A stretch of 64,000 nucleotides of DNA from Candidatus Multivoradales bacterium (GCA_965248925.1 CBDFLE010000005.1:1856001-1920000), one strand, 5' to 3'. Counted from the stretch's first letter, positions 19,214 through 45,200 are shown. Made by a program: numbers and translations. The notes: generated from the sequence alone by a model not told the origin.

Positions 19214-21316
19214 TCATACGCCGGGCCGTAGTTCAATCAAAGGCGGTCGTACAGTCACTGTGCCCGGGGTGAGGCTGTGCAACACCAGGTCGACTTCGAA
19301 CTCGCCGTCAGCGTCGGCGGGATCGCTGATCAGGTCTGCGAGGGCTGGACGCAGGTCGAAGCTGAGATCATCAGCTTGGAGTTTGACTGGCACTCTGACG
19401 TTGGCGATGCTGAGCTCGATGTTCGGCTCGGCGTTCGGCGCTGGTCCCGGCGTCAGGAAGATGGCTGCCGGAGATGTTTCTCCTACCGATCCCAAGCAGC
19501 GCCACGGCCGGCGGCGGTCGGCGCGGTCGAAGCGCTGGGCTGGTTCGCCACCGCCGGCTGAGCCGGCGTGCCACAGGGCTGTGCCGCGGGCCGTGGTTAC
19601 CAGGATCCACGTCGGCTGGTCCAATAGCGCGGCCGGCCCAGCCACTGGCAGCCGCCGCCAGGCTAGCTCACCGGCGCTCTGTAGTTCGACCCTGCCGGCC
19701 GCCAAGCTGCGGCCAGCCGGCCGGCCATCGGCGTCGTGTTGCAACTCGAAGCGCACTTCCGCCGGAGCGGTGAGCGCCACCAGGGGCAGGAGGAGGGCTT
19801 CGACGAACAGCGCCGTCGACGGCCGTACTAACACGCCGACCCAGCGACCGGCACTGAACGCGGCGGCGCTGTTAGAGACCGCCTGATCAACGGCTGGGCT
19901 TGCCAGCCGCGCGCCGCCCGCGCCAAGACCGCTCACCAGGCTGAGTTCAGCACTTTGGACTCGGCCGGCCGCAGGAAGCCGCAGCCGGAGCTGGCGGCGC
20001 TCGTCCCCACGACCTGCGAAACGGAGCACCTGCTTGCCTTGGCCATCGGCGAAGGTGGTGAGGCGAGAGATCAGCGGCGCCGCGATGTCGCCGAGGGCAA
20101 AGCGGCAGGGGGCATCGGACTCGATGATCAAAGCCAGCTCGATGGCCCCCGAGGAGTCGACCTGGCGACCTGCAAGGTGGCGGCCCAGCGCATCGCCAAA
20201 GGCCGCTCCGGCATCGACCCGCCCATCGGCCACTTCACCGGCCAGCTGCCAGAAGGGAACCGCGGCCTCAAGGTCCATGGGGTCGGCCAGGGAAAGACGA
20301 GGGGTGGTGGGCGGCGAGGTCAGATGCAAGCGCTGCAAGTCGTTGATGGTCAGGGATTCGGCGGCGCGCAGCACGAATTGGCGATCGATGAACTGGGTCC
20401 GCGGGCGGAGCGAAGGTAGCTGGCTGAATGCCGGCGCGCGAACTACGGAGCCCTGGCTCGAATGGGGCGCGGCTTCGGAATGGGCCTCGGCCGGCGCCAG
20501 AATGGTTCGGGTGGATAGCAAAGCAATGCCAGCAGCAGAGCCAGCTCCGGCGACTAGCGCTGCGCCGCTGGCGAATTGCGGGTCAGCGAGCACGGCATGG
20601 CGCTGCGTCAACCGGGTCGTCGCCTGTTCGGCAACGGCCTCGCCATCAATGCGGTGCAGGGTGAACGGCGCCACCGCCGACCGGCGCAGCTCGGCACAGG
20701 CCAAACGCCGCGGTGCCGCCAGGGTGATCTCCAACCCACCATCCCGGACCGCCACGCTAGCAGCCGGCGGCGTCTGGGTGGCCAGGTACTCAACCTGCTC
20801 GGGGCGCAAAGTACCGGCGCCCAAACGGAGAGCGAAACGAGGCTCTTGAATGGCAGCAGAGAAACGTGCGAAGCCTTGTCGGAAAGGGATCTCTTGGCGC
20901 ACCACGCTGTCCACTGTGGCGCCAACGGCGGCTAGCACTTGAAGCACGCCCGACTCGGGGCTGGCCAGCTTCACCAGGTTCACCGGCGCCGACGACGAAC
21001 GACTGACCAGGACCGCCTGGCCGGCTTCTTCGGTCGCCTGCTCTTCGACTGTGACCTGTTCAACGACTGCCGGCAGCAGTGCCTGCGCGCTGGTTAAGGC
21101 GTCGGACTCTAAGGGCTGGAAGACGCCGCGGAGCACACAAGCAGCGAGGTCGACCCGCACTTCATCGGCTGGCCCCACCGCCGGCAAGCGGAGGTAGATC
21201 AGTCGCCGAAATCGACCGCTGCCGCTGCCCTCCACCGGCGCCAAGGGGCGCGCCGCATCGGCACCTCGGGTGGCTCCGCCTCGCAAGTCGGCCATCCGCA
21301 CGGCGACCATGCTCAA
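19214..21316 (-). CDS. CIS-associated hypothetical protein (700 aa, beta-rich; possible fibre tip or accessory)
   Basis: Last gene of the operon, with a 4-bp overlap to the upstream gene. No recognisable motif. Confidence 0.6.
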   Translation of the reverse strand: MSMVAVRMADLRGGATRGADAARPLAPVEGSGSGRFRRLIYLRLPAVGPADEVRVDLAACVLRGVFQPLESDALTSAQALLPAVVEQVTVEEQATEEAGQAVLVSRSSSAPVNLVKLASPESGVLQVLAAVGATVDSVVRQEIPFRQGFARFSAAIQEPRFALRLGAGTLRPEQVEYLATQTPPAASVAVRDGGLEITLAAPRRLACAELRRSAVAPFTLHRIDGEAVAEQATTRLTQRHAVLADPQFASGAALVAGAGSAAGIALLSTRTILAPAEAHSEAAPHSSQGSVVRAPAFSQLPSLRPRTQFIDRQFVLRAAESLTINDLQRLHLTSPPTTPRLSLADPMDLEAAVPFWQLAGEVADGRVDAGAAFGDALGRHLAGRQVDSSGAIELALIIESDAPCRFALGDIAAPLISRLTTFADGQGKQVLRFAGRGDERRQLRLRLPAAGRVQSAELSLVSGLGAGGARLASPAVDQAVSNSAAAFSAGRWVGVLVRPSTALFVEALLLPLVALTAPAEVRFELQHDADGRPAGRSLAAGRVELQSAGELAWRRLPVAGPAALLDQPTWILVTTARGTALWHAGSAGGGEPAQRFDRADRRRPWRCLGSVGETSPAAIFLTPGPAPNAEPNIELSIANVRVPVKLQADDLSFDLRPALADLISDPADADGEFEVDLVLHSLTPGTVTVRPPLIELRPGV

Positions 21317-23259
21317 TCACCCCCTCCAGACAAGCCACCACCGCGGGGAGTACCGCCGCGGGCTGGCTGGCGGCCAATCCGCGGTCGCACCCCGCCGCCA
21401 CCGGGAATCACCAAGCCACCACCGATCACCGGATCGATCACCACCGGGTTCGGCAACTCAAAAATTCGCGGGTCGAAGCCACTGACCCGCTGCTTGAGCG
21501 CCAACAGGTTTTCGCGCACGTTGCCCTGCAAGCTCTTCAAGGCCTTTGCATCGGCTTTGGCGGCCAGCGCTTGTTCGGTCGCGGCCTGCAATAGGTCGAG
21601 GTCGCCAACGCCCACTTTCTCCGCCAATGCCGCTGTCGTGGTCTCTCGCAGGTTGTCGAGCTGGGCGGTGTCTCGTTGCAAGCGGTTTTCAAAGGTGTCG
21701 ATCAACAGCCGGTGGCCGACCTGCTCCTCGATCCGGGCGAGCGCCGTGGAGTTGCTGAGACGGTCGCGCTCGACTCGCTGATCCAGAGCGGCTACTTGGG
21801 AGTCGGTGGCGCGATTGGCCACCAAGGCGAGGTTTTGCAGGGACGAATCGATGCCTGAGAAGCGACTGTCGATGCGGCCAAAACGGCTGTCGAGCTCGGC
21901 GGTGCGGCCCTCCACCACCGCCGTACGCTCGGTCAACCCGGTGGCTTGAGCAAGGGCTTCTCCAACCTGTTCCTCAAGCACCGTCAGCTCACCTTCGAGC
22001 TCCACCAGGCGGCTTTGTGAGCCGGCACCGCCGGTGGCGTCGGCGAGGGCGAATCGGGCCACCACATCGAGCCCGACCTGCTCCGACTCGCCAGCCAGGG
22101 CGCTGTCCTCGAGGCTGCGCTGCAAGTCCACCGAGCTACGCGCCGCGCCGACGATTTGCGCCACAAAGATAGGTGGGTCGGCGGCCGGCGCGAAACGGTC
22201 GAGAGCCAAGCGGTAGGCGAATAAGGCGCGCTGCTTGCCGGCCGCTCCCTGGTTGGCGATGAACCGCCGAATGCTGTCTTGGATGGCACCCAAACCGCTG
22301 GCGACGTTGGTGGCGGTGGCGGTTAGGGTGGTGATCTGCTGACCGGCCCGCTGCACTACATCGTCGATCGAGCCGAAGAAATCCTGCGCCAGCCACGGCG
22401 CCGTCCAATCGCGGAAGCTGACTTCGACGCTGGTGCCACCGTGGCTGAGATCGGCGGTTTGCGAGTCGGCATCCGTCTTGACGAAAGCCAGAACAGTGGT
22501 CCGGTAGTCACGCCAGCGGTGCAGCAAGCGGCCGGCGGCACGCAGCCGGAAACGCGGTTGGGCCTGGAAGTAGGTGTCCACGAAGTGCTGCACGCTGACC
22601 GCATCGGTGCGCAAATACTCCTGGGAAAGCACCTTGAAGGCGCCGCTATTCAGCGCCTCGGTGGGGGTCGCGGTAGCGAGCAGATGGCTGCGCAAACTAA
22701 GATTGTCGGCCTGCGGCAAGCGGGTGTCAAAAGCGGCGCTAACCTCGTCCTCGACCTGCCGTGACAGACCGTCACCCTGCTCGGCGAGCAAATGCACCCT
22801 CGCCACCCCTTGGGGATCGAGCCGCACCGCCATCGAGCGCCCGCCGCTGCCACCCCGGCTGGTGGTTCCCGGCATCGCGCGGAAGCGCCCCCAAACCGTG
22901 GCAAAGTCGATCCACGGCAGCTCCGGCAGTGCGCCGACGTCGATCGGCTGGCCCAACAAGTCGGTGACCCGAGCTTCGATCTCGGACCGCTCGCCGATCA
23001 GATAGCGCCGCCGAGTGGTGGTCAGGGTGATCCGCAAACGGCCCCGAGTCAAAGTGTCGACGGTCTGACCCAAACCAGCGAGGGTGTCTTCGAAGGTGCC
23101 GAAGCGCTGGTCCAGGTCGCCGACTTGAGTGGCGACTTGGAGCAAGCCATCGCTGAGGGCGGTTTGCAGCTGGCCCACATGGCTCACCAGGTCGTTCCAA
23201 TCTTCATGTTTGATCAGCTGCCCGGCGGATTTATCGCTGAGTTCAATCAGTGTTTTCAT
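21313..23259 (-). CDS. Putative CIS tail fibre / coiled-coil protein
   Basis: N-terminal AGQLIKHEDWNDL resembles the GDLIxAEDWN fibre-attachment motif. Long heptad stretches (LDSRFGRIDSRFSGIDS). Located after the wedge genes. Confidence 0.6.
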   Translation of the reverse strand: MKTLIELSDKSAGQLIKHEDWNDLVSHVGQLQTALSDGLLQVATQVGDLDQRFGTFEDTLAGLGQTVDTLTRGRLRITLTTTRRRYLIGERSEIEARVTDLLGQPIDVGALPELPWIDFATVWGRFRAMPGTTSRGGSGGRSMAVRLDPQGVARVHLLAEQGDGLSRQVEDEVSAAFDTRLPQADNLSLRSHLLATATPTEALNSGAFKVLSQEYLRTDAVSVQHFVDTYFQAQPRFRLRAAGRLLHRWRDYRTTVLAFVKTDADSQTADLSHGGTSVEVSFRDWTAPWLAQDFFGSIDDVVQRAGQQITTLTATATNVASGLGAIQDSIRRFIANQGAAGKQRALFAYRLALDRFAPAADPPIFVAQIVGAARSSVDLQRSLEDSALAGESEQVGLDVVARFALADATGGAGSQSRLVELEGELTVLEEQVGEALAQATGLTERTAVVEGRTAELDSRFGRIDSRFSGIDSSLQNLALVANRATDSQVAALDQRVERDRLSNSTALARIEEQVGHRLLIDTFENRLQRDTAQLDNLRETTTAALAEKVGVGDLDLLQAATEQALAAKADAKALKSLQGNVRENLLALKQRVSGFDPRIFELPNPVVIDPVIGGGLVIPGGGGVRPRIGRQPARGGTPRGGGLSGGGD

Positions 23260-26095
23260 CGTTATTACCTCTCAAAATTCTGCCTTCTAGCGCCAGCCGC
23301 ACCCGCACTCCCGCCGGCCGCGCCTGTTCGATGGCTTGCCACGCCCAATCGATCAACGCCGGATCGAGGGCTGTTTCTTGCTGTCTCAGCTTGAGCCGCA
23401 CGGTGACGCTGAGTGGCCCTGCTGGACGCCAGCTCATCGACACCCGGGCGGCCGGGCAGTACGAAAAGACGGCGCGGTCGAAGAGACTCGAATCCGGCGG
23501 CGCCGGCAGGCTGTGCCGCCCGGGCAAAGGATCGGCGGCCACAGGCGGCGCCAACAATCGCCCTTCGGCGGTCCAAGCCGGGCGCTCGGCGGGTTCGTCC
23601 GGATTCTCGCCCTCGACCCTCAAGAAACGCCACTCCGAGTCGCCGCGAGGCAACTCGGGAAGCGCCGCCCAACCGCCCGCAACGATGCGCTCGGGGGTCG
23701 GCTTGAGACGCATGACCAACCGTTCCGCGCCGACCGAACTCTGCTGCGTGAACACCTCGCCATCCCAAGCGCCAAGATCGGCCACCGCCTGCTGGGTGAA
23801 GATCAACGCCCGCACTTCGATGGCCCGCCGACCGCGCAAGTCCAAGCTCTTGGCCTGCCATCCGGCGGCGCGAGAGAGCTGCTGCCAGGCGCCGGTGGCA
23901 CGGTCGAATCGCCAAGCACCGCGGTCGACGCCAGCCAGATCCTCGCCCAACAGCGTGTCGACCCGACCCAAATGAAGCAAGGCGCTACCTTGACGTTGCC
24001 AAGCGTCACGGCCATCAAAGCCCACCAAGCCACGGTCGGTGGCATGCCACACCAGGCCGCGGCGGTCGCTCAAGGTACGGTTCACGGCGCCGTCAGCAAG
24101 GTCCGGAAAGGCTTCGAGGCGAGTCTCGAAGGTAGCGCCACGGCCGGCGGTGGCCAGGTAGCGAGCCGGGCCCTGATCGGTGCCGATCCACAAGGATCCA
24201 TCAGCGGCGCGGTGCAGAGTGCGCACCGCCGGTAGGAACACCGCCGTGGCATCGGGCAAGGCTGCCGGCCGACCCTCGCCATCGAGCTCGAACGGGCGCC
24301 AATCGTCACCCGGCTCACCACCGGCGTACCACCACCAGGAGGCGGCCTCGCTTGGGGACTCACCACCTTGGCGCAGAAACAAGCCGAGCTCGCCGCCGCA
24401 GTAGAGATCCCCAACCCCATCGACGATGACCGCCGACAACGGGGTGCCGGCCAAGGCGATCGGCCGCACCGTGCCGTCGGCACCGAGGCGTTCGACACCG
24501 TTCGCGGTGGCCAGCCAATAGCCGCCGCCGTTCGCCGCCGCCAAATCGCGAACGTCGCTGTCGGATCCAGCCACCGGCGACACTGCAAAAGGCTCTCCTG
24601 ACGGCGGGTAGAGGGCCACCGTGCGCAACCCTTCGGCGGTGGCGAGTAACAGCCGGTTGCCGAGTTCGGCCAAGCGGCGAGGGGTCGGCAAGTCGGCAAG
24701 AACCCGCTGCCAACCGTCCGGAGTACCGCGCCACAGCTCGCCTCCAGCCCCCACCTCGAGGGCCGCCCACAGCACGCGATCGTGGCTCTGATAGAGGTCG
24801 ACCACCATGCCGACTGGGGAGCCGTCCGGACGTCGCCAACGGCCCGTGGAGACGGTTGGGTCGGCGTCCTCGACGTCGGTCGGCAGCGAACGCGCCGAGC
24901 GAATGCCGTCGCCGACGGCAACCCAAGAGACGAATCCTGGGCGTACTCGCAAAGTCTCGCCGGGGGCCAAGTCACCGCCGAAACCGAGGCCCACGGGCGG
25001 CCGCCCAGCGCCACCGTCGTAAAGCTCGATCATCGGCCTCACCGTCGCGTCGACCTCGCCGGGACGAGCCTCGACCCCTTCGATGTAGAGAGTTGCAGGC
25101 ACCGGGTTCAAGCCGTCATTGGTGAGCCGCCAGCGCATCAGCGGCGCCACCAGATCCTGGCTGGCGAGACGCCCTTGGGCAGCTTGGCGATGGCGGCTCC
25201 CTGGGCTGTGCTCCTCGACAAAGAACGGTCGCTCACGGCGCGACGGCGGCAGCTCGGGGTCGGCCGGCAACGCCGCCTCGACAGCGCCGCGCAACGCCGC
25301 CAGGGTGCCGAGGCCGTGGCGGTAGAGATCGACCGTCCGCTGGGTGCGGCGGCGGAAGCCCTCGGCGCTGTCGCGCCAAGCAGCCGGCTGCAGGCGGGGT
25401 CGCAAACCGAGCAAGGAGGCGAGTCGCGACAGGTTTTGGAAGTATGGGTGGTCGAGATCGGCGCGGGTCAACTGGCCGCTGAAGGTCTCCACCAACAGCC
25501 GGCGGTTGAGCCGCTCGAGCTCGGCACCCGCCAAGCCGCTACCGGCCAGGCTGAGGTCGGCCAGGGCACGGGTTTCGACGCTGAGCTCGACGGCTGCATA
25601 GCGCGCCGGGTCAAAGATCGACGGACCGCTTAGGAGGTCATCAAGCTCGCCGATCAACGCCCGTTGCAGGCGGGCCGGGAGGGGCTCTCCTGGCCCGAGC
25701 CCATCGAGCGCGGCGCGGGTCTGCGCCGTCAACCGAGCGCGCAGATCGGTGGTCACCGGATCCAGACCGCCGGCACCAGCAGCGCGCAGGCGATTGTTGA
25801 AGCCGGTGGCATCGACCAGCGCCAGCCGGTCGTTGCTCTGCGGTACCGCTTGGCCGCGCAGCTGGCGACGCCGTGCCAGGGCAGGGTGATAGAGGCCGCG
25901 GTCGGCCTGCGGCCACCAATGGGTGTTGGCAACCTCGGCGGCGGAACGATCGAGCCGATCGAGCTCCTGGCCGAGGCCGTCCAGGAAGCGGGCCAGCAGG
26001 TCATCGACCCCGGCAATGGCCAGCGCTTCTGATGCCGGCCGCGGCCGGTAGAGGCTCGGCAGCAGGGTTCTCAAGCGTGCCGCTCTAGCTCCCAT
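23243..26095 (-). CDS. Baseplate wedge (tail protein I/gp7-like) fused to a beta-propeller
   Basis: N-terminal LLPSLYRP and GLGTLAAL, C-terminal EQARPAGVRV. Central DGSLWIGTDQG and GLVWHATDRGL propeller repeats. Confidence 0.7.
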   Translation of the reverse strand: MGARAARLRTLLPSLYRPRPASEALAIAGVDDLLARFLDGLGQELDRLDRSAAEVANTHWWPQADRGLYHPALARRRQLRGQAVPQSNDRLALVDATGFNNRLRAAGAGGLDPVTTDLRARLTAQTRAALDGLGPGEPLPARLQRALIGELDDLLSGPSIFDPARYAAVELSVETRALADLSLAGSGLAGAELERLNRRLLVETFSGQLTRADLDHPYFQNLSRLASLLGLRPRLQPAAWRDSAEGFRRRTQRTVDLYRHGLGTLAALRGAVEAALPADPELPPSRRERPFFVEEHSPGSRHRQAAQGRLASQDLVAPLMRWRLTNDGLNPVPATLYIEGVEARPGEVDATVRPMIELYDGGAGRPPVGLGFGGDLAPGETLRVRPGFVSWVAVGDGIRSARSLPTDVEDADPTVSTGRWRRPDGSPVGMVVDLYQSHDRVLWAALEVGAGGELWRGTPDGWQRVLADLPTPRRLAELGNRLLLATAEGLRTVALYPPSGEPFAVSPVAGSDSDVRDLAAANGGGYWLATANGVERLGADGTVRPIALAGTPLSAVIVDGVGDLYCGGELGLFLRQGGESPSEAASWWWYAGGEPGDDWRPFELDGEGRPAALPDATAVFLPAVRTLHRAADGSLWIGTDQGPARYLATAGRGATFETRLEAFPDLADGAVNRTLSDRRGLVWHATDRGLVGFDGRDAWQRQGSALLHLGRVDTLLGEDLAGVDRGAWRFDRATGAWQQLSRAAGWQAKSLDLRGRRAIEVRALIFTQQAVADLGAWDGEVFTQQSSVGAERLVMRLKPTPERIVAGGWAALPELPRGDSEWRFLRVEGENPDEPAERPAWTAEGRLLAPPVAADPLPGRHSLPAPPDSSLFDRAVFSYCPAARVSMSWRPAGPLSVTVRLKLRQQETALDPALIDWAWQAIEQARPAGVRVRLALEGRILRGNNDENTD

Positions 26096-27875: not shown

Positions 27876-27930
27876 GGTGGGAACCTCATGATCGGAACCT
27901 CATGATCGAAACTTCATGATCAAAACTTCA
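27867..27930. repeat. Degenerate 14-bp tandem repeat (~4.5 units) at the gp25/baseplate J junction
   Basis: GAAGCTCATGGTGG, GAACCTCATGATCG x2, AAACTTCATGATCA, AAACTTCA. Confidence 0.85.
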
Positions 27931-28414
27931 AAGTGAAAGGGCCGATGGAGACGATGTCGGCCGCCGCCACCGGCCGCACCGCGAGAGAGATGTCGACGCG
28001 GTCGCGTTGTAGCGGGTGGGGCTCGACGCTGATCCGCTCGACCGCCTCTATGCGCGGCTCTGCGGCCAGGCTCTCAAGAATGTAGAGCCGCGCCAGGTCG
28101 CGAACGGTGGCGCTGTTGGGCTGGCCGACCAACTCGGCCAATCGACTGCCATAACCGGGCTGGCCGAGAGGGGCGAGTTCGCCGCGTGGAGTCAGCAGGC
28201 GCAGCAGCACCGCTTGACCGAGATTGTCGCGGCCGCCGAGGGTCGCAAAGTCGTTGCGCGCCGCGCTACCTTGGCCAGCCGGCCGTGGGGCTCGGCGAAG
28301 CTGTTCCGCCAGCCGAAACCGCGGTCGCCAACGCTGATCGACCAACTGCAAACGGAGGTCGCGCAGCAGGTTTTGTTGCTCGGCCATCAAGTCATCCTCC
28401 AACAGGTCATCCAC
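27920..28414 (-). CDS. GPW/gp25 family baseplate protein
   Basis: GRDNLGQAVLLRLLTPRGEL, YGSRLAELVG, LAAEPRIEAV. Confidence 0.9.
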   Translation of the reverse strand: MDDLLEDDLMAEQQNLLRDLRLQLVDQRWRPRFRLAEQLRRAPRPAGQGSAARNDFATLGGRDNLGQAVLLRLLTPRGELAPLGQPGYGSRLAELVGQPNSATVRDLARLYILESLAAEPRIEAVERISVEPHPLQRDRVDISLAVRPVAAADIVSIGPFTLKF

Positions 28415-32965: not shown

Positions 32966-32988
32966 GACTTGAATCTCCGGCTCCGGGC

Positions 32989-40300: not shown

Positions 40301-40787
40301 TCTTCTCGGCGGCATCGCCGTCCAGGCTGCCGAGCACCCCGAGCAGCTGATTTATCAGCGGTTCCAGGGCACCACCGGCACTTGCCGGCGCGCCGCCGGT
40401 GAGGCCGCTCAAAGTGTCGATGAGCTTCTGCAAGTCGCCTAGGAAGTCGCCGGCGAGACTTCCTTTGAGGCCCTCGATCCGTTGCACAAAGCCCCAGAGA
40501 GCGGCTTGTGGGTTGAGATCCAGGTCGAGATCGACCTGCGCCAAGGCTCGCGCAACGCGCTCCACTTGGGCCTGGGGATCGAGCTTGAACACAGCACCGA
40601 GTTGAGCTTCGAAGCTCAGGGCGAAGCCATCCCCCGACAGCACCGGTGCCGAGCCGCTGAGCGCCGCCGCGCCGGCCAAGCCAGTCGCCGGCTCACCGTC
40701 GCCACCTGCCTTGCCGAGCAGGCCGAGCAAACCAGACAGAGCCTCCCCCAAGCCGCTGATCTCGAGTTGTAGGGTTCCTTCGGGCAT
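37329..40787 (-). CDS. 1152-aa amphipathic helical repeat protein (tape-measure-like or membrane-active)
   Basis: Leu/Ala/Asp-rich, with recurring LDPxxLLxPL units. Confidence 0.65.
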   Translation of the reverse strand: MPEGTLQLEISGLGEALSGLLGLLGKAGGDGEPATGLAGAAALSGSAPVLSGDGFALSFEAQLGAVFKLDPQAQVERVARALAQVDLDLDLNPQAALWGFVQRIEGLKGSLAGDFLGDLQKLIDTLSGLTGGAPASAGGALEPLINQLLGVLGSLDGDAAEKIQAWIRALEAQVRELRPLFEAAAATADVPALVLQVFRRTLDQLLAAFGYGSLRGLFDFLEGGVAQTLPASLLAAVGGRFDAVIDAYGEVQAAVGTAQLGVRVGAAVDAVAELKVVLRPVLAALRRSAHHPFARPRGLELFLRRFLDQALAVQVTELQQIDDPFKDLLDRLDQAVEAIDLSFVSEGVLAFFADLESRLEGLDPDALTRGLEQRLAEVESALSGLESGVDDLSRQIGEHFDTLVTAQRGLFENLGQFAPDGSFTFHLEADLRKVLGGAQRAISGDPDHPEAASVSATLNDLRDGLSAVLAGLGSLLQPVESAAAGVTAAALGGIEDFTTFLDGLDVPGLMAELRGKIEAVLDALAPIDFSPVVDPVVEAFAENGRKLAEIDPEQLNDLLRAALATALDAVIKIDFTVAVSAPLGDQMAQVKALPAGAIATLQESFESALQELRALSPEALLQGLVEALGTVHEALERLDPNKLLQPLDEIHERLLLRPLAALDPASLLAPLAAAFDGRMSAFDGLSGAALIAPLVDRLDQLRAVVEGLDLAAPLDRLLAVVTELKQDLRGARPSALLAPVADDLSRLEAEFDRFKPSLVMAPVVDLAAPLLSFLDTVQQDLVTALFELFRQPLADLDRLDPAVLAEAFLRQIDSGLELARGLDLAGRFRRLKGVYFDLDAALSVAPGSGASSGASFAGRVKVTAALEPEVQLGSLMAAYGEIVGSAEGIRGHLDLSALAEDYGEFRQRLLGLLPPFARQALDVDTFRRVMRLASPLRFVDQLDARFETIKAKLLPLRPAEIGGELDAVYERVLAKVEALDPSVAVAALRDSLSRLQALVGELRVDFVAADIDAAIGNLRAVVEAADPARLAALLDGLRSALLAAAEQTVPSTLLSDIGGPFERVRGLVESLDPEAVLAPARLAWEAVEETLAEIDFRLVLAPLVAKLDELEAELVLGLKRSEDAFDGMLSSARGALGAGANAGASASVGGSL

Positions 40788-40804: not shown

Positions 40805-41404
40805 TCAATCGTCGCTGCCGAGCAGGCCGACCAGCGGACCGAGGGCTGCCTCGACACTGGCGGTAGCGGTGGTGACGCCATCGATCAACGAGCGCAACGG
40901 CGGCGTCGGATCGGCGATGTCAGGAATGGAGCCCAGGCCATCGATCAAGTCGACGGCGTTGCTGACCGTGTCCAAAAAATCACCGGCTTGATCGAGCAAG
41001 CCGCTGTCGAGACCAGCGAAAGGATCCGCTGGTGGTGGCGGTGGCGGGCTCTCGCGCAAGCGGATGCGGTAGGCCAGTTGGTCGGGACGGCGGCCACTCT
41101 CGCCCAGCCAAAGCTCCTCGATCACCACATATTGAACCTCGGTGGCGGTGGTGATGTCGGCGACGAAAGTCACCGGCTCGCCGTCCTGAAAGCGGGCTCG
41201 CAGCTGGTCGAAGAGCGTGCTCTTATCCTCCTCACCGTGCAAGCTGCCATGGATCTCCAACAGCGTCGGCTCACTGTTCAAGTCTTGAAACAGACTGCCG
41301 ACCCGACCCGGCACCGCAAGCTCGACAAACGCCCGCCGTTCGAGGGTCTCGATAGCGGCGATACGGGGGATCTCCCAGCCACCGAGCACCGGCTTGACGT
41401 TCAT
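40805..41404 (-). CDS. Tail tube initiator-like protein (DNA-circularization N-terminal / Mu gp43-like)
   Basis: ERRAFVELAVPGRVGSLFQDLNSEPTLLEIHG ... YRIRLRE. Position downstream of the tube fits this role. Confidence 0.65.
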   Translation of the reverse strand: MNVKPVLGGWEIPRIAAIETLERRAFVELAVPGRVGSLFQDLNSEPTLLEIHGSLHGEEDKSTLFDQLRARFQDGEPVTFVADITTATEVQYVVIEELWLGESGRRPDQLAYRIRLRESPPPPPPADPFAGLDSGLLDQAGDFLDTVSNAVDLIDGLGSIPDIADPTPPLRSLIDGVTTATASVEAALGPLVGLLGSDD

Positions 41405-42609
41405 GACAGATCCACCCCATGGCGCCGGGCTTGACCGACCAGAACGCCGTTGATCAAATCGCTGAGCTCGGTGGCATCGGGGCGAGCGGGAGGCGAGTCC
41501 GGTTGGGCCAGGGGTTCGGTGCCTGCCACCGTCGAGGATAGGACGGCAACCGCCGAAGCCTGAGCCGCAGCCCCTGCTTGCTCCTCGGCCTGCTCCGCGG
41601 CCTCCTCCTCGGGTAACCGCTCAGATCGAGCTACCGCGGTCGTGGAGGTGGGCGCGGCCGGCGCGGCCGGCGCGGTCGACGCGGTCGACGCGGCCGCTGG
41701 CCATACCGGCGTCAACCTTGATGCAGGGCTCGACGACGGCGCGGTCGCGGCCGGAGACACTCGCCGCACCGCGGCGCCCGAAGACGGCGACGTAGCTGGG
41801 CGATCGAGCAGAACACTCGCCAGCCTGTCGAGGCGACCCCAGACTTCTGCCGCGGCCCCCACCTCTGAGCTGGTGGCAATCGGTGGCAAGACTTGGCGCC
41901 CGGCCCCGCCCCTCGGCGGCACGAATCCGGCAGGGCGAGGAGCGCTCGCAACCGGCTGCTCGGATCTCGGGCCAGCGGCAGCGGCGGAAGCTGCGGGACC
42001 CCTGCCGGCGGCCGTGTTCTGCTCTGCCGACAGAATCTCGGAGCTCTGGCTGCCCAGCGAATCCCAAGCCGCCGCCAGAGCACCTAGAGCCGTCCCTGGG
42101 GTGATGGGGGTAGAGACTGTCGTCCGCACCTCCCGCGATACCGTGGCGGCGGTGCTGCTCGCCGATCCAGAGTTTTTCTTCTTCGACGCCCGACCCACCA
42201 CTTGGCGAGTCAGCTGGGCCACGGGTGCCGAAGGCTGTAGCGATCGGTCCGAGCGGGGCGATGGCTGCGACCGCGCTTTGGCGACGGGCGCCGCGTCGAG
42301 GGTGCCGAGCTCGCTCGACGCCGTGGGTTCAGTAAATCGCGCAGCGGACGCAGCGAGGGTCGCAGGGCGCTGATCGCCGGGGCCGGAGGTCGGCCCAGCC
42401 CCCCGCCCCACCCTCGGCAGCTCCTCAGCCGCGACCGGTGGGCCGGCGAAGACCAGCTCGTCCACCAGGGGCAGCGTACCGTCGGCCAAGCGTTCCCCGC
42501 ATGCGGCGAGTAGCCGCAACGGCCGCAGCTCGGGGACGGCGGTGGTCAACGCCAAGGCCACCCCACGAAAGGCGGCAACCGCCAAGCGCTGGCCGCGGTC
42601 GTCACTCAT
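41401..42609 (-). CDS. Low-complexity Ala/Pro/Ser-rich CIS protein with conserved-looking termini
   Basis: ATGA overlaps on both sides. Disordered middle, helical C-terminus LSDLINGVLVGQARRHGVDL. Confidence 0.65.
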   Translation of the reverse strand: MSDDRGQRLAVAAFRGVALALTTAVPELRPLRLLAACGERLADGTLPLVDELVFAGPPVAAEELPRVGRGAGPTSGPGDQRPATLAASAARFTEPTASSELGTLDAAPVAKARSQPSPRSDRSLQPSAPVAQLTRQVVGRASKKKNSGSASSTAATVSREVRTTVSTPITPGTALGALAAAWDSLGSQSSEILSAEQNTAAGRGPAASAAAAGPRSEQPVASAPRPAGFVPPRGGAGRQVLPPIATSSEVGAAAEVWGRLDRLASVLLDRPATSPSSGAAVRRVSPAATAPSSSPASRLTPVWPAAASTASTAPAAPAAPTSTTAVARSERLPEEEAAEQAEEQAGAAAQASAVAVLSSTVAGTEPLAQPDSPPARPDATELSDLINGVLVGQARRHGVDLS

Positions 42610-43076
42610 GCCACCGCCGATCCTTGGCGCAGGAGCTGTAAATGAAGCAAGATCTGCCCCAAGGTCAAGGCGTGGATCTCTTCCGGCGTCCAGCCAAGCT
42701 GCCGCGAGAGCACAAAAGCGGCCTTCACCAACGGTGCTTCCATGGCCGCTGTCAAATGCTCCTGACTGGCGGTGATGCCGCTGATCTCGTTGACCCTATC
42801 GACCAGGAACTGCGCCAGTCCGGCGCTCAAGCCGGCGACTTGGGCAATGCTGAGCGCTGGCGCTTCGATGGCGGCGTGGACCAACAAGGTGGCGGTGAGC
42901 TGATCGTCTTGCTTGGCGGCCCGGGAGACGCGCTGCAAGTCGTCCACCGTCAGCGGCCGCAAGCAGACACTTGCCGCCCCCTCTTCCCCGACCCCGGCGC
43001 CGAGCAGCTCTGGCGGCACCACCACATCGTGGCTCAGTCGGCTGCCCGCCAGCAGCTCTTCGGCGGTCAGGGTCAT
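42606..43076 (-). CDS. Tail assembly chaperone-like protein
   Basis: VCLRPLTVDDL (TAC-type motif), C-terminal LGWTPEEIHALT. Directly after the tube gene. Confidence 0.65.
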   Translation of the reverse strand: MTLTAEELLAGSRLSHDVVVPPELLGAGVGEEGAASVCLRPLTVDDLQRVSRAAKQDDQLTATLLVHAAIEAPALSIAQVAGLSAGLAQFLVDRVNEISGITASQEHLTAAMEAPLVKAAFVLSRQLGWTPEEIHALTLGQILLHLQLLRQGSAVA

Positions 43077-43567
43077 GGCTCGTCCTGGGTCGACAAATAA
43101 AGGGCCTGGAAGCCGGTGGACTCAATCACGAAATCGTCTTCCGGCATGTCATAGACCCAGCTGTCGATCTTGACGTTGTGCAACGTCACCGTGCTGCGCA
43201 GATCAGGGGTAGCGGGGTTTTGCAACATCAAAGTGATGTTGAACTCAGGTTGGGTCCAACCACCGGCCGGACGGCTAGAAGCGGCCTCACCGAGCAGCAG
43301 GCCGAGCAAGGCACCATTCAAATAGGCGCGATCGAAGGTGCCGCGGATGGTGATGTTGCCGGGTCGCAGCTCCGTGGCATAACGTTGGCCAATCTCGTGG
43401 AAGGGTTTGACATCCGAGCGCACTTCGACCCGCACCCCGCGCACCCGGCCGACGGATAGCAGCTCGTGCTTCTCGAGCACCTCCTTCGCCGCCTCGCCTT
43501 GAGGCGTGGCTGGCGCTGCTAAGGTGATCGAGCCGTCGGCTCCGGTAAAGACACTGGTATTTGGCAT
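43073..43567 (-). CDS. Tail tube protein (XkdM-like)
   Basis: VGRVRGVRVEV, FHEIGQR, GNITIRGT, VTLHNVKIDSW. Follows the sheath gene, with a GGAGG RBS. Confidence 0.8.
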   Translation of the reverse strand: MPNTSVFTGADGSITLAAPATPQGEAAKEVLEKHELLSVGRVRGVRVEVRSDVKPFHEIGQRYATELRPGNITIRGTFDRAYLNGALLGLLLGEAASSRPAGGWTQPEFNITLMLQNPATPDLRSTVTLHNVKIDSWVYDMPEDDFVIESTGFQALYLSTQDEP

Positions 43568-43583: not shown

Positions 43584-44678
43584 CTACTGCAGGGTCAAAG
43601 TAACGGCGACAAAGTCGATACTGAAGGTGGGCTGCAGCAAGGCATTGACAATCGCCCGGCCGGCAATCTCATCTTGACGACTGGCGGTAACCTCGAGGCG
43701 GTAGTCGGTCAAAGCCTCGTCAGCCACCATAGTGTCGAAGAAACCGGCGATCGTGCTATGTAAAGCGGCTCGTACTCGGGCGTTGTTGAGCTTGCCAATG
43801 AACGGATCGGCGGCGGCGCGGGCGCCCCGCTTCGCCAAGTCGACAATGCGCCGGGTAGTGATTTGTGAAAACGCACCCACGTCGGTGGTGACTCCGCGCA
43901 CCACCCGCACGCCGCCCCGCTCCTCGAGAGTTAGCACCGCGCCGTGATCATCGTCGTTGGCCAACAGGCTCTCGAGTTCAGCGTAGGAAAAACGGCGCGA
44001 TAGCTTGGTGATCCCCGGCAGACTCTTGTTGGTCGGACTGCTCTGCACGGCCAGGGTGCTGATCAATCCGGCAACGGCGGCGGCGCCATAGGTGCCAGGT
44101 AGGTCGACTTCCTCGCCAGCGGCGGCATCGAAGGCCCGATAGCCCGGCGTCGTCATCACCACCCGGTCGTTGGTCGGCGCCTGGTCGCGAATAGCCGTTG
44201 CCGCGGCATCGTTGGCGGCGTCGGAACCGATGATCGCCACCATGTCGCGGCCATTGTTCTCACCGCTTTCGAGCACTGGCCCGAGGGCCGCCAAAGCATC
44301 GGCGGTGGACAGCTCAGGCAACACCAAGATGTTGATGTCGTCCTTGACCAGCTCGGCAAGCTCGGCCTCGAAAGCGGCGCGATTGGCAGCCGCCGGCAGG
44401 GCCCGAGCAAACACTGTGCGCGCTCCACCGCGAAACAGTTGCTCGAGCCCGCGAGTCAGATTGAGGGTGCCGTCGCTGAGCGGGTCGTAGGCACCAAACA
44501 GCGCTTGTGCCGAGGCGTAGTCGGAAACCAAGTGGGTTTCGCCGCCTCCGAGTTCGGCGGTGCCGACGATACCGATGTTGCCTGTCGACAGGCCTCCGAC
44601 CCCGATCAGGCCCTCCGCCCGTACTTGTACGAAAGTGCCCGGAACCACGAATTCCGATAGGTTGAATGTCTCGGTCAT
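43584..44678 (-). CDS. Contractile tail sheath protein (364 aa, minimal)
   Basis: VPGTFVQV, IGIVGTA, SSPTNK, RVVRGVTT, ITTRRIVD, FIGKLNNARVR, LQPTFSIDFVAVT. Confidence 0.92.
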   Translation of the reverse strand: MTETFNLSEFVVPGTFVQVRAEGLIGVGGLSTGNIGIVGTAELGGGETHLVSDYASAQALFGAYDPLSDGTLNLTRGLEQLFRGGARTVFARALPAAANRAAFEAELAELVKDDINILVLPELSTADALAALGPVLESGENNGRDMVAIIGSDAANDAAATAIRDQAPTNDRVVMTTPGYRAFDAAAGEEVDLPGTYGAAAVAGLISTLAVQSSPTNKSLPGITKLSRRFSYAELESLLANDDDHGAVLTLEERGGVRVVRGVTTDVGAFSQITTRRIVDLAKRGARAAADPFIGKLNNARVRAALHSTIAGFFDTMVADEALTDYRLEVTASRQDEIAGRAIVNALLQPTFSIDFVAVTLTLQ

Positions 44679-44720: not shown

Positions 44721-45200
44721 TCAGCCGTCGGCGGCAACCAGCTCGATGGGAATGTTGGCAATGACCTCGTCGCCCTCGAGCGGGCTCGAAACCAATTCGT
44801 AATGCGCCACGAAGTGCAACTCCTGGCTCGCTTCAGTGCTTTGCGGCCGGGCTGCTGCAGGCGGCCCGACCCGTTCTAACTCGAGTCGCAGCAAACCCAC
44901 GTCGTCGAGCGCCGCCCGGCCTATGCCGAGCAGCGATTCGAGAGCGGTTGCCACCGCTCCGGGCAGCTCGGCGGTCGTCGGTGCTCGCACCGCCACCGCC
45001 ACGGTGGCCTCGGCGCGGCGGCCGAAAAGCTCCGCAGATTGATCGTCATTAAGACCCACCAATCCGCCCACTCCGGCCGGCTTGAGGGTCAACGTATAGA
45101 GGCTCACCCGTGGCTGTGGCAGGGTTCCCATGCCGGTGGCCAAAAGGGTTTCGAAAGCGGCAAAAAGCCCCGCGATCGTGGCACTACTGGTTGGCTCCAC
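44721..45200 (-). CDS. First CIS gene; putative tail terminator/cap protein
   Basis: GAGGTG RBS before GTG 45200. Its size and position before the sheath fit a terminator, but no firm motif is visible. Confidence 0.5.
   Translation of the reverse strand: MEPTSSATIAGLFAAFETLLATGMGTLPQPRVSLYTLTLKPAGVGGLVGLNDDQSAELFGRRAEATVAVAVRAPTTAELPGAVATALESLLGIGRAALDDVGLLRLELERVGPPAAARPQSTEASQELHFVAHYELVSSPLEGDEVIANIPIELVAADG

What the first reader, a model, noticed from the sequence alone, without database searches (positions are those of the whole stretch)
19214..45200. Atypical contractile injection system with no AAA+ ATPase, head, lysis or T6SS membrane genes
Seen in the sequence: a tightly coupled 19-gene operon with a minimal 364-aa sheath, one XkdM-like tube, chaperone, tube initiator, split hub and spike, PAAR, gp25, one baseplate J, a wedge-propeller fusion and a fibre. 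Established knowledge: canonical eCIS (Afp/PVC/MAC) carry an Afp15 AAA+ ATPase and gp19-type tubes. R-tailocins lack protein cargo and carry lysis cassettes. T6SS need TssJLM and ClpV. This locus matches none of these, yet it has ~10 kb of extra genes in its middle. Inference: a distinct cargo-carrying CIS lineage.
Basis: partly seen in the sequence, partly recalled or inferred. Interest (0 to 1): 0.85.

Follow-up and report, generated by a model that had tools for sequence, protein, structure and literature searches.

The report
Widespread headless phage-tail injection machine
This is an intact operon for a headless, contractile phage-tail-like particle of a widespread but undescribed lineage that does without the helper ATPase and cap of the well-studied injection systems, so it is a new variant worth studying rather than a new kind of machine.

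Summary
The operon is real: 19 tightly packed minus-strand genes (19214-45323). They encode sheath, tube, chaperone, tube initiator, split hub and spike, PAAR, gp25, baseplate J, wedge and fibre proteins. There is no ATPase, head, membrane or lysis gene in or beside it.

It is not a one-off. The gene order recurs in at least 319 species genomes, and the 80 loci kept span 11 phyla. Sheath identity is 52-65% and dN/dS is 0.02-0.40.

It fails the membership test for Afp/PVC-type eCIS: the tube is not gp19-type, and there is no DUF4255 cap, LysM or AAA+ ATPase. It also fails for R-tailocins (no lysis cassette, no phage relative above 34% identity) and for T6SS.

One correction. The same genome holds a separate, complete, canonical eCIS locus with its own ATPase and cap about 150 kb away. 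36 of 50 other carriers lack that cap, so the two look independent.

"Cargo-carrying" is not shown. Of the ~10 kb of middle genes, the 1152-aa helical protein is conserved in all five full-length loci examined and is probably the tape measure. The 1446-aa NHL protein keeps an HExxH zinc-peptidase motif in 10 of 10 loci. Only the last three genes, including an M14 carboxypeptidase, are specific to this locus.

The parts
45313..45327 (-). Sigma-54-type promoter-like site (TGGCAT-N5-TTGC), about 113 nt upstream of the likely g01 start
   Evidence: Read from the sequence. One mismatch to the recalled consensus TGGCAC-N5-TTGC. rpoN is present in the genome. Such sites occur in 9 of 77 related loci against about 5 expected by chance, so this is a lead only.
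44721..45200 (-). g01: conserved ~160-aa protein directly upstream of the sheath; candidate cap or terminator. The listed ORF extends to ATG 45323.
   Evidence: tblastn homologue in 62 of 80 loci. Homologues begin at the residue aligned with GTG 45200, which is preceded by AGAGGTG. No Pfam, PHROG or NCBIfam hit. No profile similarity to Pvc16_N. Its role is inferred from position only.
43584..44678 (-). g02: tail sheath, 364 aa (minimal form)
   Evidence: PF04984 and PF17482. phrog_279, E 2e-27. 2282 homologues at E<=1e-5 among 8000 candidates scored.
43073..43567 (-). g03: tail tube, 164 aa, not gp19-type
   Evidence: No family hit. Weak tube/Hcp fold matches. Ten of 10 distant relatives match PF18906. 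Homologue in 79 of 80 loci.
42606..43076 (-). g04: tail assembly chaperone, 156 aa
   Evidence: PF10109 at E 0.004, below cut-off. Position after the tube. Homologue in 76 of 80 loci.
41401..42609 (-). g05: 402-aa proline/alanine-rich, low-complexity protein in the usual tape-measure slot, with a conserved C-terminal ~20-aa motif
   Evidence: Alignment of 6 orthologues: only the C-terminal motif is conserved, and length ranges from 310 to 402 aa. The C-terminus was found by tblastn in 3 of 5 full loci. No conserved frameshift with g04.
40805..41404 (-). g06: tube initiator without LysM, 199 aa (tube-fold N-domain, polyproline linker, C-terminal helices)
   Evidence: AF2 model pLDDT 66, with residues 11-120 at 75-83 apart from one ten-residue block at 58. 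Foldseek gave 40 matches at E<=1e-3, the top ones being baseplate and tube-initiator chains. Homologue in 66 of 80 loci.
37329..40787 (-). g07: 1152-aa acidic all-helical protein; tape-measure candidate
   Evidence: Weak PHROG tape-measure hits, E 1.7e-5 and 1.6e-3. Present in 5 of 5 full loci; its ORF is 1134-1180 aa in the 4 where my ORF call recovered it whole. dN/dS 0.10-0.40. A related locus, L101, has a 1125-aa protein in the classical slot and none after the initiator.
32989..37329 (-). g08: 1446-aa NHL beta-propeller plus HExxH zinc-peptidase protein; particle-associated enzyme or effector candidate
   Evidence: PF01436 NHL, E 6.5e-35. PDB NHL propellers match residues ~565-800. HExxH plus a downstream E-G-aromatic motif is kept in 10 of 10 distinct loci. 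tblastn hit in 14 of 80 loci. dN/dS 0.05-0.15.
32060..32965 (-). g09: basic ~301-aa protein of unknown function. The listed ORF starts at TTG 33091.
   Evidence: Homologues in 2 of 5 full loci, aligning from residue 43 or 49. No family hit.
31757..32047 (-). g10: 96-aa acidic protein, locus-specific
   Evidence: No family hit. Found in 0 of 5 full loci and 0 of 80 loci.
30647..31741 (-). g11: M14 zinc carboxypeptidase, 364 aa, no TM segment; locus-specific passenger or effector candidate
   Evidence: PF00246, E 5.6e-46. Nearest solved structures are carboxypeptidases A4, B and T, E 1e-20 to 1e-17. Found in 0 of 80 related loci.
29483..30634 (-). g12: baseplate hub (gpD or VgrG N-terminal part), 383 aa
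   Evidence: PF05954, E 3.5e-4. phrog_52, E 1.7e-9. NF033848, E 2e-11.
28839..29486 (-). g13: spike (gpV or VgrG C-terminal OB part), 215 aa
   Evidence: PF04717, E 3.4e-8. TIGR03361, NF033848 and TIGR01644.
28407..28802 (-). g14: PAAR spike tip, 131 aa
   Evidence: PF05488, E 5.7e-11. 68-77% identity in 5 of 5 full loci.
27920..28414 (-). g15: gp25-type sheath initiator, 164 aa
   Evidence: PF10934 and PF04965, both below cut-off. phrog_975, E 1.4e-15.
26085..27875 (-). g16: baseplate J wedge protein, 596 aa
   Evidence: PF04865, E 2.9e-13. phrog_6, E 1e-32. Nearest solved structures are phage Bas63 wedge protein 2 and diffocin TRI-2, both at E 1e-4.
23243..26140 (-). g17: 965-aa second wedge protein with a propeller-like middle
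   Evidence: PF07494 Reg_prop, E 1.7e-4. 32-43% identity in 5 of 5 full loci from residue ~226 on. Its role is inferred from its position after J.
21313..23259 (-). g18: 648-aa coiled-coil fibre-like protein
   Evidence: N-terminal 300-460 residues conserved in 5 of 5 full loci, C-terminus variable. No family above threshold.
19214..21316 (-). g19: 700-aa distal fibre or receptor-binding candidate
   Evidence: Partial homologues in 4 of 5 full loci, not found in the Thauera locus. No family hit.

Best explanation
The operon encodes a complete, headless, contractile phage-tail-like particle of a distinct, horizontally spread lineage.

Shown:
- The operon encodes the recognisable core of a contractile tail: sheath, tube, chaperone, tube initiator, hub, spike, PAAR tip, gp25 sheath initiator, and J plus a second wedge protein. 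The fibre and terminator roles (g18, g19, g01) are assigned from position only.
- The set is conserved in order in full-length loci from five phyla or proteobacterial classes, and the 80 kept loci span 11 phyla.
- The genes are under purifying selection.
- The lineage does not travel with an Afp15-type ATPase, a DUF4255 cap, head genes or membrane proteins.

Inferred mechanism:
- The particle self-assembles in the cytoplasm on the baseplate, as a myophage tail does. The 1152-aa helical protein g07 serves as the length ruler, with g05 as the rival candidate.
- The particle binds a target through g17-g19, contracts, and drives the PAAR-tipped spike and tube through an envelope.
- The large protein between initiator and hub is the zinc peptidase g08 here. 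In many other loci it is an ~750-1040-aa protein with a weak M23-like C-terminus. I read it as an enzyme carried by the particle that acts on the target surface or wall.
- The most likely target is therefore another bacterium, as for a tailocin.
- g09-g11, including the M14 carboxypeptidase, are locus-specific add-ons.

How the particle leaves the producer is unknown.
For: Parts.

Conservation:
- 319 species genomes encode a relative of the sheath.
- Among the 80 loci kept, tblastn hits were: tube 79, chaperone 76, g06 66, g01 62, g07 50. The 10-kb flanks and contig ends limit these counts.
- 5 of 5 full-length loci keep the order g01-g04, g06, g07, g12-g18.

Selection: dN/dS is 0.02-0.40 for every gene measurable in 8 locus pairs; one g07 pair had saturated dS.

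Independence from the eCIS ATPase and cap:
- No AAA hit lies inside the window.
- Of 20 ORFs flanking or inside the Thauera and Sulfitobacter loci, none carries an ATPase, head or lysis family.
- Pvc16_N is found in 0 of 5 and 14 of 45 other carrier genomes.
- The second locus's ATPase finds only generic AAA cores in 3 of 5 genomes and nothing in 2 of 5.

Not a phage tail:
- 18 of 50,697 phage records match the sheath, all at 34% identity or less and over half its length or less.
- No plasmid matches.
- The genome's two capsid-plus-portal modules lie on other contigs, beside their own long tail-type ORFs.

Peptidase: HExxH is kept in 10 of 10 loci.

Horizontal acquisition:
- Only 4 of 40 relatives have any sheath match, at 45-48% identity, lower than the 52-65% seen across phyla.
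- An rve transposase lies next to the operon.
Against: - No particle, expression or activity data exist, and no RNA run was listed.
- The target is not known. NHL propellers and M14 carboxypeptidases are not classic wall hydrolases.
- The M23 hits in the alternative proteins are below Pfam's cut-off: 17.8 and 19.7 bits against 28.7, in 2 of 3 proteins scanned.
- There is no lysis cassette, so extracellular release is unexplained.
- The tape-measure assignment is unsettled. g05 sits in the classical slot. g07 has only weak PHROG hits, and profile comparison to the 1125-aa slot protein of L101 gave 4% probability.
- The tube model is of low confidence.
- This genome does hold an eCIS ATPase and cap in trans, so help from them here cannot be excluded.
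Confidence: 0.6

Rival explanations
1. One reading: an eCIS-like toxin-delivery particle. The mid-operon proteins g08-g11 are cargo packed into the particle and injected into a target cell, possibly a eukaryote, with loading that needs no ATPase.
For: - g08 keeps its catalytic motif in 10 of 10 loci.
- g11 is an intact M14 peptidase without an export signal or TM segment.
- The slot between initiator and hub holds alternative large proteins in different loci: g08-type in 12-14 loci and the ~830-aa type in about 28 of 80. This resembles an exchangeable effector slot.
- The PAAR tip is typical of effector-delivering systems.
Against: - In the known eCIS, cargo genes lie at the 3' end of the operon, and loading uses Afp15/Pvc15 plus N-terminal signals (passages of PMC8213781 seen; preprint abstract in the listing). 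Neither feature is present here.
- A folded 1446-aa propeller protein cannot sit in a tube lumen (my inference).
- g07 is not variable cargo: it is found in 5 of 5 full loci.
- No immunity-like partner is evident apart from the 96-aa g10, which was not tested.
Confidence: 0.2
2. A cytoplasmic contractile system like that of Streptomyces. It is never released and fires inside the producer to bring about stress-induced or developmental cell death.
For: - There are no lysis, holin or membrane-anchor genes in the operon.
- The carriers include Chloroflexota, cyanobacteria such as Nodosilinea and Phormidium, and Actinomycetota. That many of these are filamentous is my recollection.
- The abstract of PMC10066040, seen in the listing, describes such a system.
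Against: - Carriers also include Thauera, Paracoccus, Sulfitobacter and Marinobacter. That these grow as single cells is my recollection.
- The operon keeps long, variable fibre-like proteins (g17-g19) whose distal parts diverge between loci, as expected for outside targets.
- The Streptomyces-type system belongs to the ATPase- and cap-bearing eCIS lineage. This rests on my recollection and on the earlier AI note e1-4609587, which I did not test.
Confidence: 0.15
3. The locus depends in trans on the Afp15-like ATPase and the Pvc16-like cap of the second eCIS locus in the same genome. It would then be an ordinary ATPase-assisted system split over two sites.
For: A complete eCIS locus with a WHD+AAA ATPase (605 aa) and a Pvc16_N cap (431 aa) lies at C5:2051798-2081601, on the same contig about 150 kb away.
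Against: - That locus has its own sheath, gp19 tube, hub and spike, with further long ORFs downstream that were not scanned.
- 36 of 50 other carriers of this lineage have no Pvc16_N hit anywhere. Many of those are incomplete bins.
- No full-length orthologue of the ATPase was found in 5 of 5 carriers.
Confidence: 0.04
4. The tail module of a prophage, active or decaying, whose head genes lie elsewhere.
For: - All core parts are phage-tail homologues.
- Two capsid-plus-portal modules exist in the genome.
- Three IMG/VR 'viral' contigs carry distant relatives with the same gene order, at 41-44% sheath identity.
Against: - No head genes were found in the window.
- None were found among the 20 ORFs scanned in two of the related full loci.
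- The genome's head modules are on contigs C6 and C2, followed by their own tail-sized ORFs of 1929 aa and 708/956 aa. This is inferred from ORF sizes only.
- There is strong purifying selection and cross-phylum synteny.
- No deposited phage has this sheath.
Confidence: 0.03

Closest known systems
Afp/PVC-type extracellular contractile injection systems (eCIS subtypes Ia-IId of Chen et al. 2019, PMC6899500)
   Same: A free-standing headless contractile tail operon that spreads horizontally across many phyla. It has a short sheath with PF04984 and PF17482, a VgrG-like hub and spike, PAAR, gp25, baseplate J and fibres. An Afp7/Pvc7/Cis7-like tube-initiator fold is present.
   Different: - The tube is not gp19-type.
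- There is no LysM on the initiator, no DUF4255 cap and no AAA+ ATPase.
- VgrG is split into two genes.
- Large conserved proteins sit between the initiator and the hub.
- The sheath profile matches Afp3, Pvc3 and the tCIS sheath only at E 3e-7 to 3e-5, no better than it matches pyocin or diffocin sheaths.
- The J protein finds no Afp11-type chain.
R-type tailocins (R2 pyocin, diffocin)
   Same: A headless myophage-tail derivative with a minimal sheath (364 aa here; 386 and 354 aa for the solved pyocin and diffocin sheaths). No ATPase is needed. The tube belongs to the non-gp19 phage tube group. The J protein's best solved matches include diffocin TRI-2. The initiator matches diffocin and pyocin baseplate chains.
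   Different: - There is no holin, lysin or spanin cassette (features as described in PMC10598620, passages seen).
- There is no close phage ancestor.
- The range spans many phyla rather than one genus.
- It has a PAAR tip.
- It carries a conserved 1152-aa helical protein and a peptidase module after the initiator.
Mu-type and Milano/7-7-1-type myophage tails
   Same: The gene order is sheath, tube, chaperone, [tape measure], tube initiator, hub (gpD/P family), spike V, gp25, J, second wedge, fibre. The Mu order is recalled from memory. The g06 model's three best fold matches are baseplate chains of phages Milano, Mu and 7-7-1.
   Different: There are no head, replication or lysis genes. The classical tape-measure slot holds a disordered 310-402-aa protein, and the long helical protein follows the initiator. 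Sequence identity to any deposited phage sheath is 34% or less.
Streptomyces-type cytoplasmic CIS
   Same: There are no lysis or membrane genes. It occurs in Chloroflexota, Actinomycetota and cyanobacteria. The initiator model matches the S. coelicolor CIS baseplate chain 9gtp_M at E 1.3e-4.
   Different: That system belongs to the ATPase- and cap-bearing eCIS lineage (recalled). Here both are missing and the tube type differs.
Type VI secretion systems
   Same: Contractile sheath and tube, VgrG-like spike, PAAR and gp25/TssE-like sheath initiator.
   Different: No TssC-type sheath or TssM was found anywhere in the genome, which is 96.9% complete. The locus has no ClpV. It has baseplate J and fibres. 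No TM-like segment occurs in 18 of the 19 operon proteins; g19 has a marginal one.

Membership tests
Afp/PVC-type eCIS (eight core subunits in >85% of loci; Chen et al. 2019, PMC6899500, passages seen) | Afp2/3/4-type sheath (PF04984/PF17482) | tested here: met
   PF04984 at 38.7 bits and PF17482 at 42.2 bits, both above cut-off.
Afp/PVC-type eCIS | Afp1/5 tube of the T4 gp19 family (PF06841) | tested here: not met
   g03 has no Pfam hit even at E<=1. Its distant relatives match PF18906. The same PF06841 model found two genes elsewhere in this genome, so the search works here.
Afp/PVC-type eCIS | Afp7: LysM-bearing tube initiator | tested here: inconclusive
   g06 has the tube-initiator fold. 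Its matches include chains of about 224 aa in the AFP, PVC and Streptomyces CIS baseplate entries, which I take to be Afp7, Pvc7 and Cis7. No LysM or any other Pfam domain was detected.
Afp/PVC-type eCIS | Afp8 VgrG-like spike, Afp9 gp25 and Afp11 baseplate J | tested here: met
   g12 and g13 cover the two halves of the VgrG-related model NF033848. g15 hits PF10934/PF04965 and phrog_975. g16 hits PF04865. VgrG is split into two genes.
Afp/PVC-type eCIS | Afp15 AAA+ ATPase in the locus | tested here: not met
   - No AAA family in any of the 19 proteins.
- None of the genome's 60 AAA hits lies in the window.
- None among 20 ORFs of two related loci.
- The genome's one Afp15-like gene belongs to another locus.
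Afp/PVC-type eCIS | Afp16 cap (DUF4255, Pvc16_N, PF14065) | tested here: not met
   No hit in the operon. The only genomic hit is at C5:2062653 in the second locus. hhalign of g01 and of g06 against that protein gives probability of about 0.1%.
R-type tailocin | Headless contractile phage-tail gene set | tested here: met
   The recognisable core tail set is present. No capsid, portal or terminase was found in the window.
R-type tailocin | Lysis cassette (holin, endolysin, spanin) in the cluster (as described in PMC10598620, passages seen) | tested here: not met
   No TM-like segment in g01-g18; g19 has a marginal one. No lysozyme, amidase or holin family. Small ORFs under 60 aa were not examined.
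R-type tailocin | Recognisable kinship to a phage lineage, and distribution within one genus or family | tested here: not met
   The best phage sheath match is 33% identity over 41% of the query. Relatives occur in 11 phyla.
R-type tailocin | Kills related bacteria by membrane puncture without cargo | not testable with these tools
   This needs purified particles and killing assays.
Type VI secretion system | TssB/TssC sheath, TssJLM membrane complex and ClpV recycling | tested here: not met
   PF05943 (TssC) and PF06761 (TssM/IcmF) both gave 0 matches in the 96.9%-complete genome, and both rang in the E. coli control. TssJ and TssL were not searched.
Prophage (functional myophage) | Head, packaging and lysis modules contiguous with the tail | tested here: not met
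   Window flanks encode kinases, sigma factors, CHAT proteins, KatG and a transposase. Capsid and portal genes occur only on C6 and C2.

The most novel reading that the evidence does not exclude
This is a third major class of free contractile injection particle, alongside Afp/PVC-type eCIS and genus-level R-tailocins. It would be an ancient, cross-phylum, ATPase-free lineage. A conserved module between tube initiator and hub, made of a giant helical protein plus a swappable peptidase, would be a new way of arming the particle: the enzyme is built in during assembly and delivered on contraction, with no loading ATPase and no signal peptide.
Probability: 0.3. Interest if true: 0.8.

Novelty: new variant of a known kind. 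Interest (0 to 1): 0.62.

Why it matters
Surveys of injection systems define eCIS by Afp-type profiles. Chen 2019 lists Afp15 and Afp16 among its eight core subunits. Geller 2021 requires at least one of Afp12, 13, 14 or 16. By those definitions, this lineage would have been filtered out.

It is nevertheless present in at least 319 of 185,579 species genomes, a lower bound from a two-pattern scan. These include cultured Thauera, Paracoccus, Sulfitobacter, Teichococcus and Nodosilinea strains.

It offers a natural test of whether a headless injection particle with an enzyme module needs an ATPase at all. It is also a compact ~21-26 kb scaffold with a PAAR tip, and it adds a poorly charted branch to the evolution of phage tails into cellular tools.

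If it turns out to be only a tailocin without a lysis cassette, it still widens the known range of tailocins from single genera to many phyla.

Tried and rejected
- A single-protein scan of genome contigs found nothing. The alignment-based scan worked.
- Earlier-findings look-ups gave nothing that bears on this locus. One search failed on a word limit and was re-sent.
- hhalign of g01 and of g06 against the genome's own Pvc16_N cap showed no similarity. The same was true of tube against g06.
- BLASTP of g08 against two of the alternative ~750-980-aa proteins showed no similarity. A shared adaptor domain is therefore not supported.
- A programmed frameshift joining the chaperone g04 to g05 is rejected. 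Frame relations differ among the 6 loci (2, 2, 1, 2, 0, 1) and there is no slippery heptamer.
- g07 family against the 1125-aa tape-measure-slot protein of L101: hhalign probability 4%. This is inconclusive.
- Protein Atlas look-ups for g07 and g01 returned only unnamed clusters scoring 0.76-0.88.
- Sigma-54 sites as a lineage-wide feature: 9 of 77 loci against about 5 expected. This is not convincing. A sigma-54 activator gene lies upstream in 6 loci only.
- No RNA holder was listed for the operon, so nothing can be said about expression.
- The promoter and terminator scan of the g19/kinase gap found nothing.
- The complex-prediction job was not used, because no binding claim rests on it.
- Five literature searches, plus passages of PMC6899500, PMC8213781, PMC10598620 and the PhageTAILor preprint, found no description of this lineage. 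Supplementary locus tables of Chen 2019 and Geller 2021 could not be seen and might list some members.
- My first ORF clustering used a crude longest-ORF caller that often picked antisense ORFs in this high-GC DNA. It called only 42 of 80 sheaths, so its family counts are rough.

Full report
**What is there.** Nineteen ORFs lie head to tail on the minus strand from 45323 to 19214. Gaps between them range from -103 to +44 nt. In transcription order they are:

| Gene | Size | Identification |
|---|---|---|
| g01 | ~160 aa | conserved protein, unknown family |
| g02 | 364 aa | sheath (PF04984 + PF17482; PHROG tail sheath, E 2e-27) |
| g03 | 164 aa | tube |
| g04 | 156 aa | chaperone (PF10109, below cut-off) |
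| g05 | 402 aa | proline/alanine-rich, low complexity |
| g06 | 199 aa | tube initiator |
| g07 | 1152 aa | acidic, all-helical |
| g08 | 1446 aa | NHL repeats (PF01436, E 6.5e-35) plus an HEMAH motif |
| g09, g10 | 343, 96 aa (as listed) | unknown |
| g11 | 364 aa | M14 carboxypeptidase (PF00246, E 5.6e-46) |
| g12, g13 | 383, 215 aa | split VgrG-like hub and spike |
| g14 | 131 aa | PAAR |
| g15 | 164 aa | gp25 |
| g16 | 596 aa | baseplate J |
| g17 | 965 aa | second wedge protein with a weak propeller signal |
| g18, g19 | 648, 700 aa | fibre-like proteins |

These identifications rest. No TM-like segment occurs in 18 of the 19 proteins; g19 has a marginal one. The flanks encode Ser/Thr kinases with TPR repeats, ECF sigma factors, CHAT proteins, KatG and an rve transposase. 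They contain no phage head, lysis or ATPase genes.

**Parts that had no family.**
- Tube (g03): it has no hit in Pfam, PHROGs, NCBIfam or the PDB by sequence or profile. Its model is weak (pLDDT 62). The best fold matches are T4, PVC and Hcp tube chains, all with E above 1e-3.
- A profile of 30 tube orthologues found only 268 representatives at E<=1e-3 among 1.84 billion. I scanned 10 of the full-length distant ones. All 10 match PF18906 Phage_tube_2, four above cut-off, and one also touches XkdM-type PF09393. The tube is therefore of the phage type, not the gp19/Afp1 type. 'XkdM-like' is only loosely right.
- g06: the model (pLDDT 66, with the N-domain mostly at 75-83) has a tube fold followed by a polyproline linker and two helices. 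Foldseek gave 40 matches at E<=1e-3. The top ones are baseplate chains of phages Milano, Mu and 7-7-1, then diffocin, monocin and pyocin R2. Chains of the Streptomyces CIS, PVC and AFP baseplates follow. It is a tube initiator without LysM.
- g01 shows no similarity to the DUF4255 cap. I call it a cap or terminator candidate from its position only. Alignment with 24 homologues, and a Shine-Dalgarno-like AGAGGTG, place its start at GTG 45200 rather than ATG 45323.

**It is a lineage, not a one-off.**
- The sheath has 2282 homologues at E<=1e-5 among the 8000 candidates scored. The best 120 are 58-65% identical and the same length.
- A two-pattern scan of one genome per species found 319 genomes encoding a relative.
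- Among the 80 loci kept, tblastn finds the tube in 79, the chaperone in 76, g06 in 66, g01 in 62 and g07 in 50. Genes further downstream are cut off by the 10-kb flanks.
- I fetched five full loci, from Gemmatimonas, Chloroflexia, Bryobacterales, Sulfitobacter and Thauera. All five keep the order g01-g04, g06, g07, g12-g18.
- In those five loci, g19 is found in 4, the g05 C-terminus in 3, g08 in 2, g09 in 2, and g10 and g11 in none.
- dN/dS is 0.02-0.40 for every gene measurable in 8 locus pairs. That includes g07 (0.10-0.40, with one pair saturated) and g08 (0.05-0.15).
- A sheath tree of 81 rows spans 11 phyla and needs 21 changes of phylum label. The minimum is 10 and the shuffled mean is 47.6. 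The pattern is partly vertical and partly transferred.
- In this genome the locus looks acquired. Only 4 of 40 relatives (4 of 23 in the same family, 0 of 17 in other families of the order) have any match, at 45-48% identity. That is lower than the 52-65% seen across phyla. A transposase gene lies next to it.

**The ATPase question.**
- None of the 60 AAA hits in the genome lies in the window.
- The genome does contain a gp19-type tube at C5:2054919, a Pvc16_N cap at C5:2062653 and a 605-aa WHD+AAA ATPase at C5:2064083-2065900.
- These belong to a second, plus-strand operon. It has its own 1012-aa sheath (PF17482 only, which is why the PF04984 search missed it). It also has a T4_baseplate protein, a 2138-aa protein, a gpD-like hub and a gpV-like spike, followed by further long ORFs.
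- This is a complete canonical eCIS locus about 150 kb from the operon.
- Comparison argues against dependence. PF14065 finds nothing in the 5 genomes with full loci and hits 14 of 45 further carriers. So 36 of 50 carriers lack the cap, although many are incomplete bins. The ATPase finds only generic AAA cores in 3 of 5 genomes and nothing in 2.
- Twenty ORFs inside and beside the Thauera and Sulfitobacter loci have no ATPase, head or lysis family. Only 2 of the 20 had any Pfam hit.

**Not a phage, plasmid or T6SS.**
- Eighteen of 50,697 phage records match the sheath. Those listed are 27-33% identical and cover 51% of the query or less.
- No plasmid matches at 1e-10.
- Four IMG/VR contigs match. 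Three of them are more distant relatives (41-44%) with the same gene order, not phages with heads in view.
- The genome's two capsid-plus-portal modules are on contigs C6 and C2. They are followed by their own long tail-type ORFs (the last point is inferred from ORF sizes).
- TssC and TssM were not found in the 96.9%-complete genome.

**The 'extra' 10 kb (30647-40787).**
- g07 is present in 5 of 5 full loci. Its ORF is 1134-1180 aa in the 4 loci where my ORF call recovered it whole.
- It follows the initiator, whereas tape measures normally precede it. The classical slot holds g05. g05 is disordered, 310-402 aa in the six loci aligned, and conserved only in a C-terminal ~20-residue motif. There is no conserved frameshift linking it to the chaperone.
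- A more distant relative, L101, has a 1125-aa protein in the classical slot and nothing after the initiator. Another, L099, has the 413 + 1206-aa arrangement seen here. The size match favours g07 as the relocated ruler, but profile comparison gives no homology.
- My odds are g07 60%, g05 25%, neither 15%.
- The next slot holds alternatives. A g08-type protein gives a tblastn hit in 14 of 80 loci. An unrelated ~750-1040-aa protein occupies the slot in about 28 loci by my rough clustering. Its C-terminus matches M23 peptidase below threshold in 2 of the 3 proteins scanned.
- g08 keeps HExxH and a downstream E-G-aromatic motif in 10 of 10 distinct loci. It is probably an active zinc peptidase.
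- g11 is nearest to carboxypeptidases A, B and T, not to murein peptidases. It occurs only in this locus.

**How it most likely works.**
- Shown: a set of contractile-tail parts with the recognisable core complete, under selection, that travels without ATPase, cap, head or membrane genes.
- Inferred: the tail assembles on the baseplate as a phage tail does. It binds a target through the variable distal proteins, contracts, and drives in the PAAR-tipped spike.
- The peptidase module is carried by the particle and acts on the target's surface or wall. A bacterial target is therefore the most likely. Release is unexplained.
- The rivals are true cargo injection (0.2), a cytoplasmic Streptomyces-like role (0.15), dependence on the second locus (0.04) and a prophage tail (0.03).

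**Comparison with what is known.**
- It works like an R-tailocin or eCIS but is a member of neither by their defining features.
- Chen et al. 2019 list eight core subunits in more than 85% of eCIS loci (passages read). Here the gp19 tube, Afp15 and Afp16 are tested and not met, and the LysM initiator is only half met.
- Geller et al. 2021 kept only operons with at least one of Afp12, 13, 14 or 16 (passages read). That filter would probably drop this lineage.
- R-tailocins carry lysis cassettes (Heiman et al. 2023, passages read) and sit close to known phages. Neither holds here.
- The sheath profile is about equally far from PVC, Afp, pyocin, tCIS, XkdK-like and diffocin sheaths, at E 1e-7 to 1e-4.
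- Five literature searches found no description.

**Verdict.** 'Distinct lineage' is supported. 'Cargo-carrying' is unproven, and 'no ATPase in the genome' is wrong in the letter but probably right in substance. This is a new variant of a known kind, of solid but not startling interest.

Noticed in passing
outside the window: G000:C5:2051798-2081601 (L097:7798 to L098:17601, plus strand): A second, canonical eCIS-type operon in the same genome. It has a 1012-aa sheath (PF17482 only), a gp19 tube, a T4_baseplate protein, a 2138-aa protein, a Pvc16_N cap, a WHD+AAA ATPase, a gpD hub and a gpV spike. Further ORFs of 866-1260 aa follow.
   Followed up: partly
outside the window: G000:C6:2740344-2740778: A further gp19-type tail-tube gene (PF06841, E 3.8e-22; 188-aa ORF) far from both CIS loci. 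Its neighbours were not looked at.
   Followed up: no
window 45313-45327 (minus strand): A sigma-54-type promoter-like site, TGGCAT-N5-TTGC, overlaps the annotated ATG of g01 and lies about 113 nt upstream of the likelier GTG start at 45200. rpoN is present at C5:808454. Perfect-match sites occur upstream of two Desulfobacterales loci (L034, L035), and a sigma-54 activator gene lies upstream of the sheath in 6 related loci.
   Followed up: partly
window 47006-48127 (plus strand): An rve-family integrase/transposase lies 1.7 kb from the start of the operon. Together with the patchy presence in relatives (4 of 40), this suggests the locus sits in an acquired island. No repeats or att sites were sought.
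   Followed up: no
window 16251-18986, 8545-11382, 1-1944, 57534-60149: The surroundings are dense in signalling proteins: two Ser/Thr kinases fused to TPR repeats, one of them 227 nt downstream of the operon on the same strand, and two TPR-CHAT proteins. The kinase is not conserved beside related loci.
   Followed up: partly
L051 (uncultured Anaerolineaceae), 4913-21010: A rearranged version of the operon. The g06-g07 pair is inverted upstream of the sheath, and the chaperone plus a ~1.2-kb gene is followed directly by hub, spike, PAAR, gp25, J and wedge. This shows that g06 and g07 move as a unit.
   Followed up: no
L088:13592-14680, L089:1177-2253, L093:2907-3995: In 3 of 5 full loci the g01 homologue is ~360 aa. 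It carries a C-terminal concanavalin-like domain (PF06439, E 1e-6 in the one scanned) that the window's g01 lacks.
   Followed up: partly
outside the window: G000:C6:~929000-950000 and contig C2 (41.5 kb): Two phage-like regions with HK97-type capsid and portal genes, followed by long tail-type ORFs. C2 may be a whole phage or prophage contig.
   Followed up: partly
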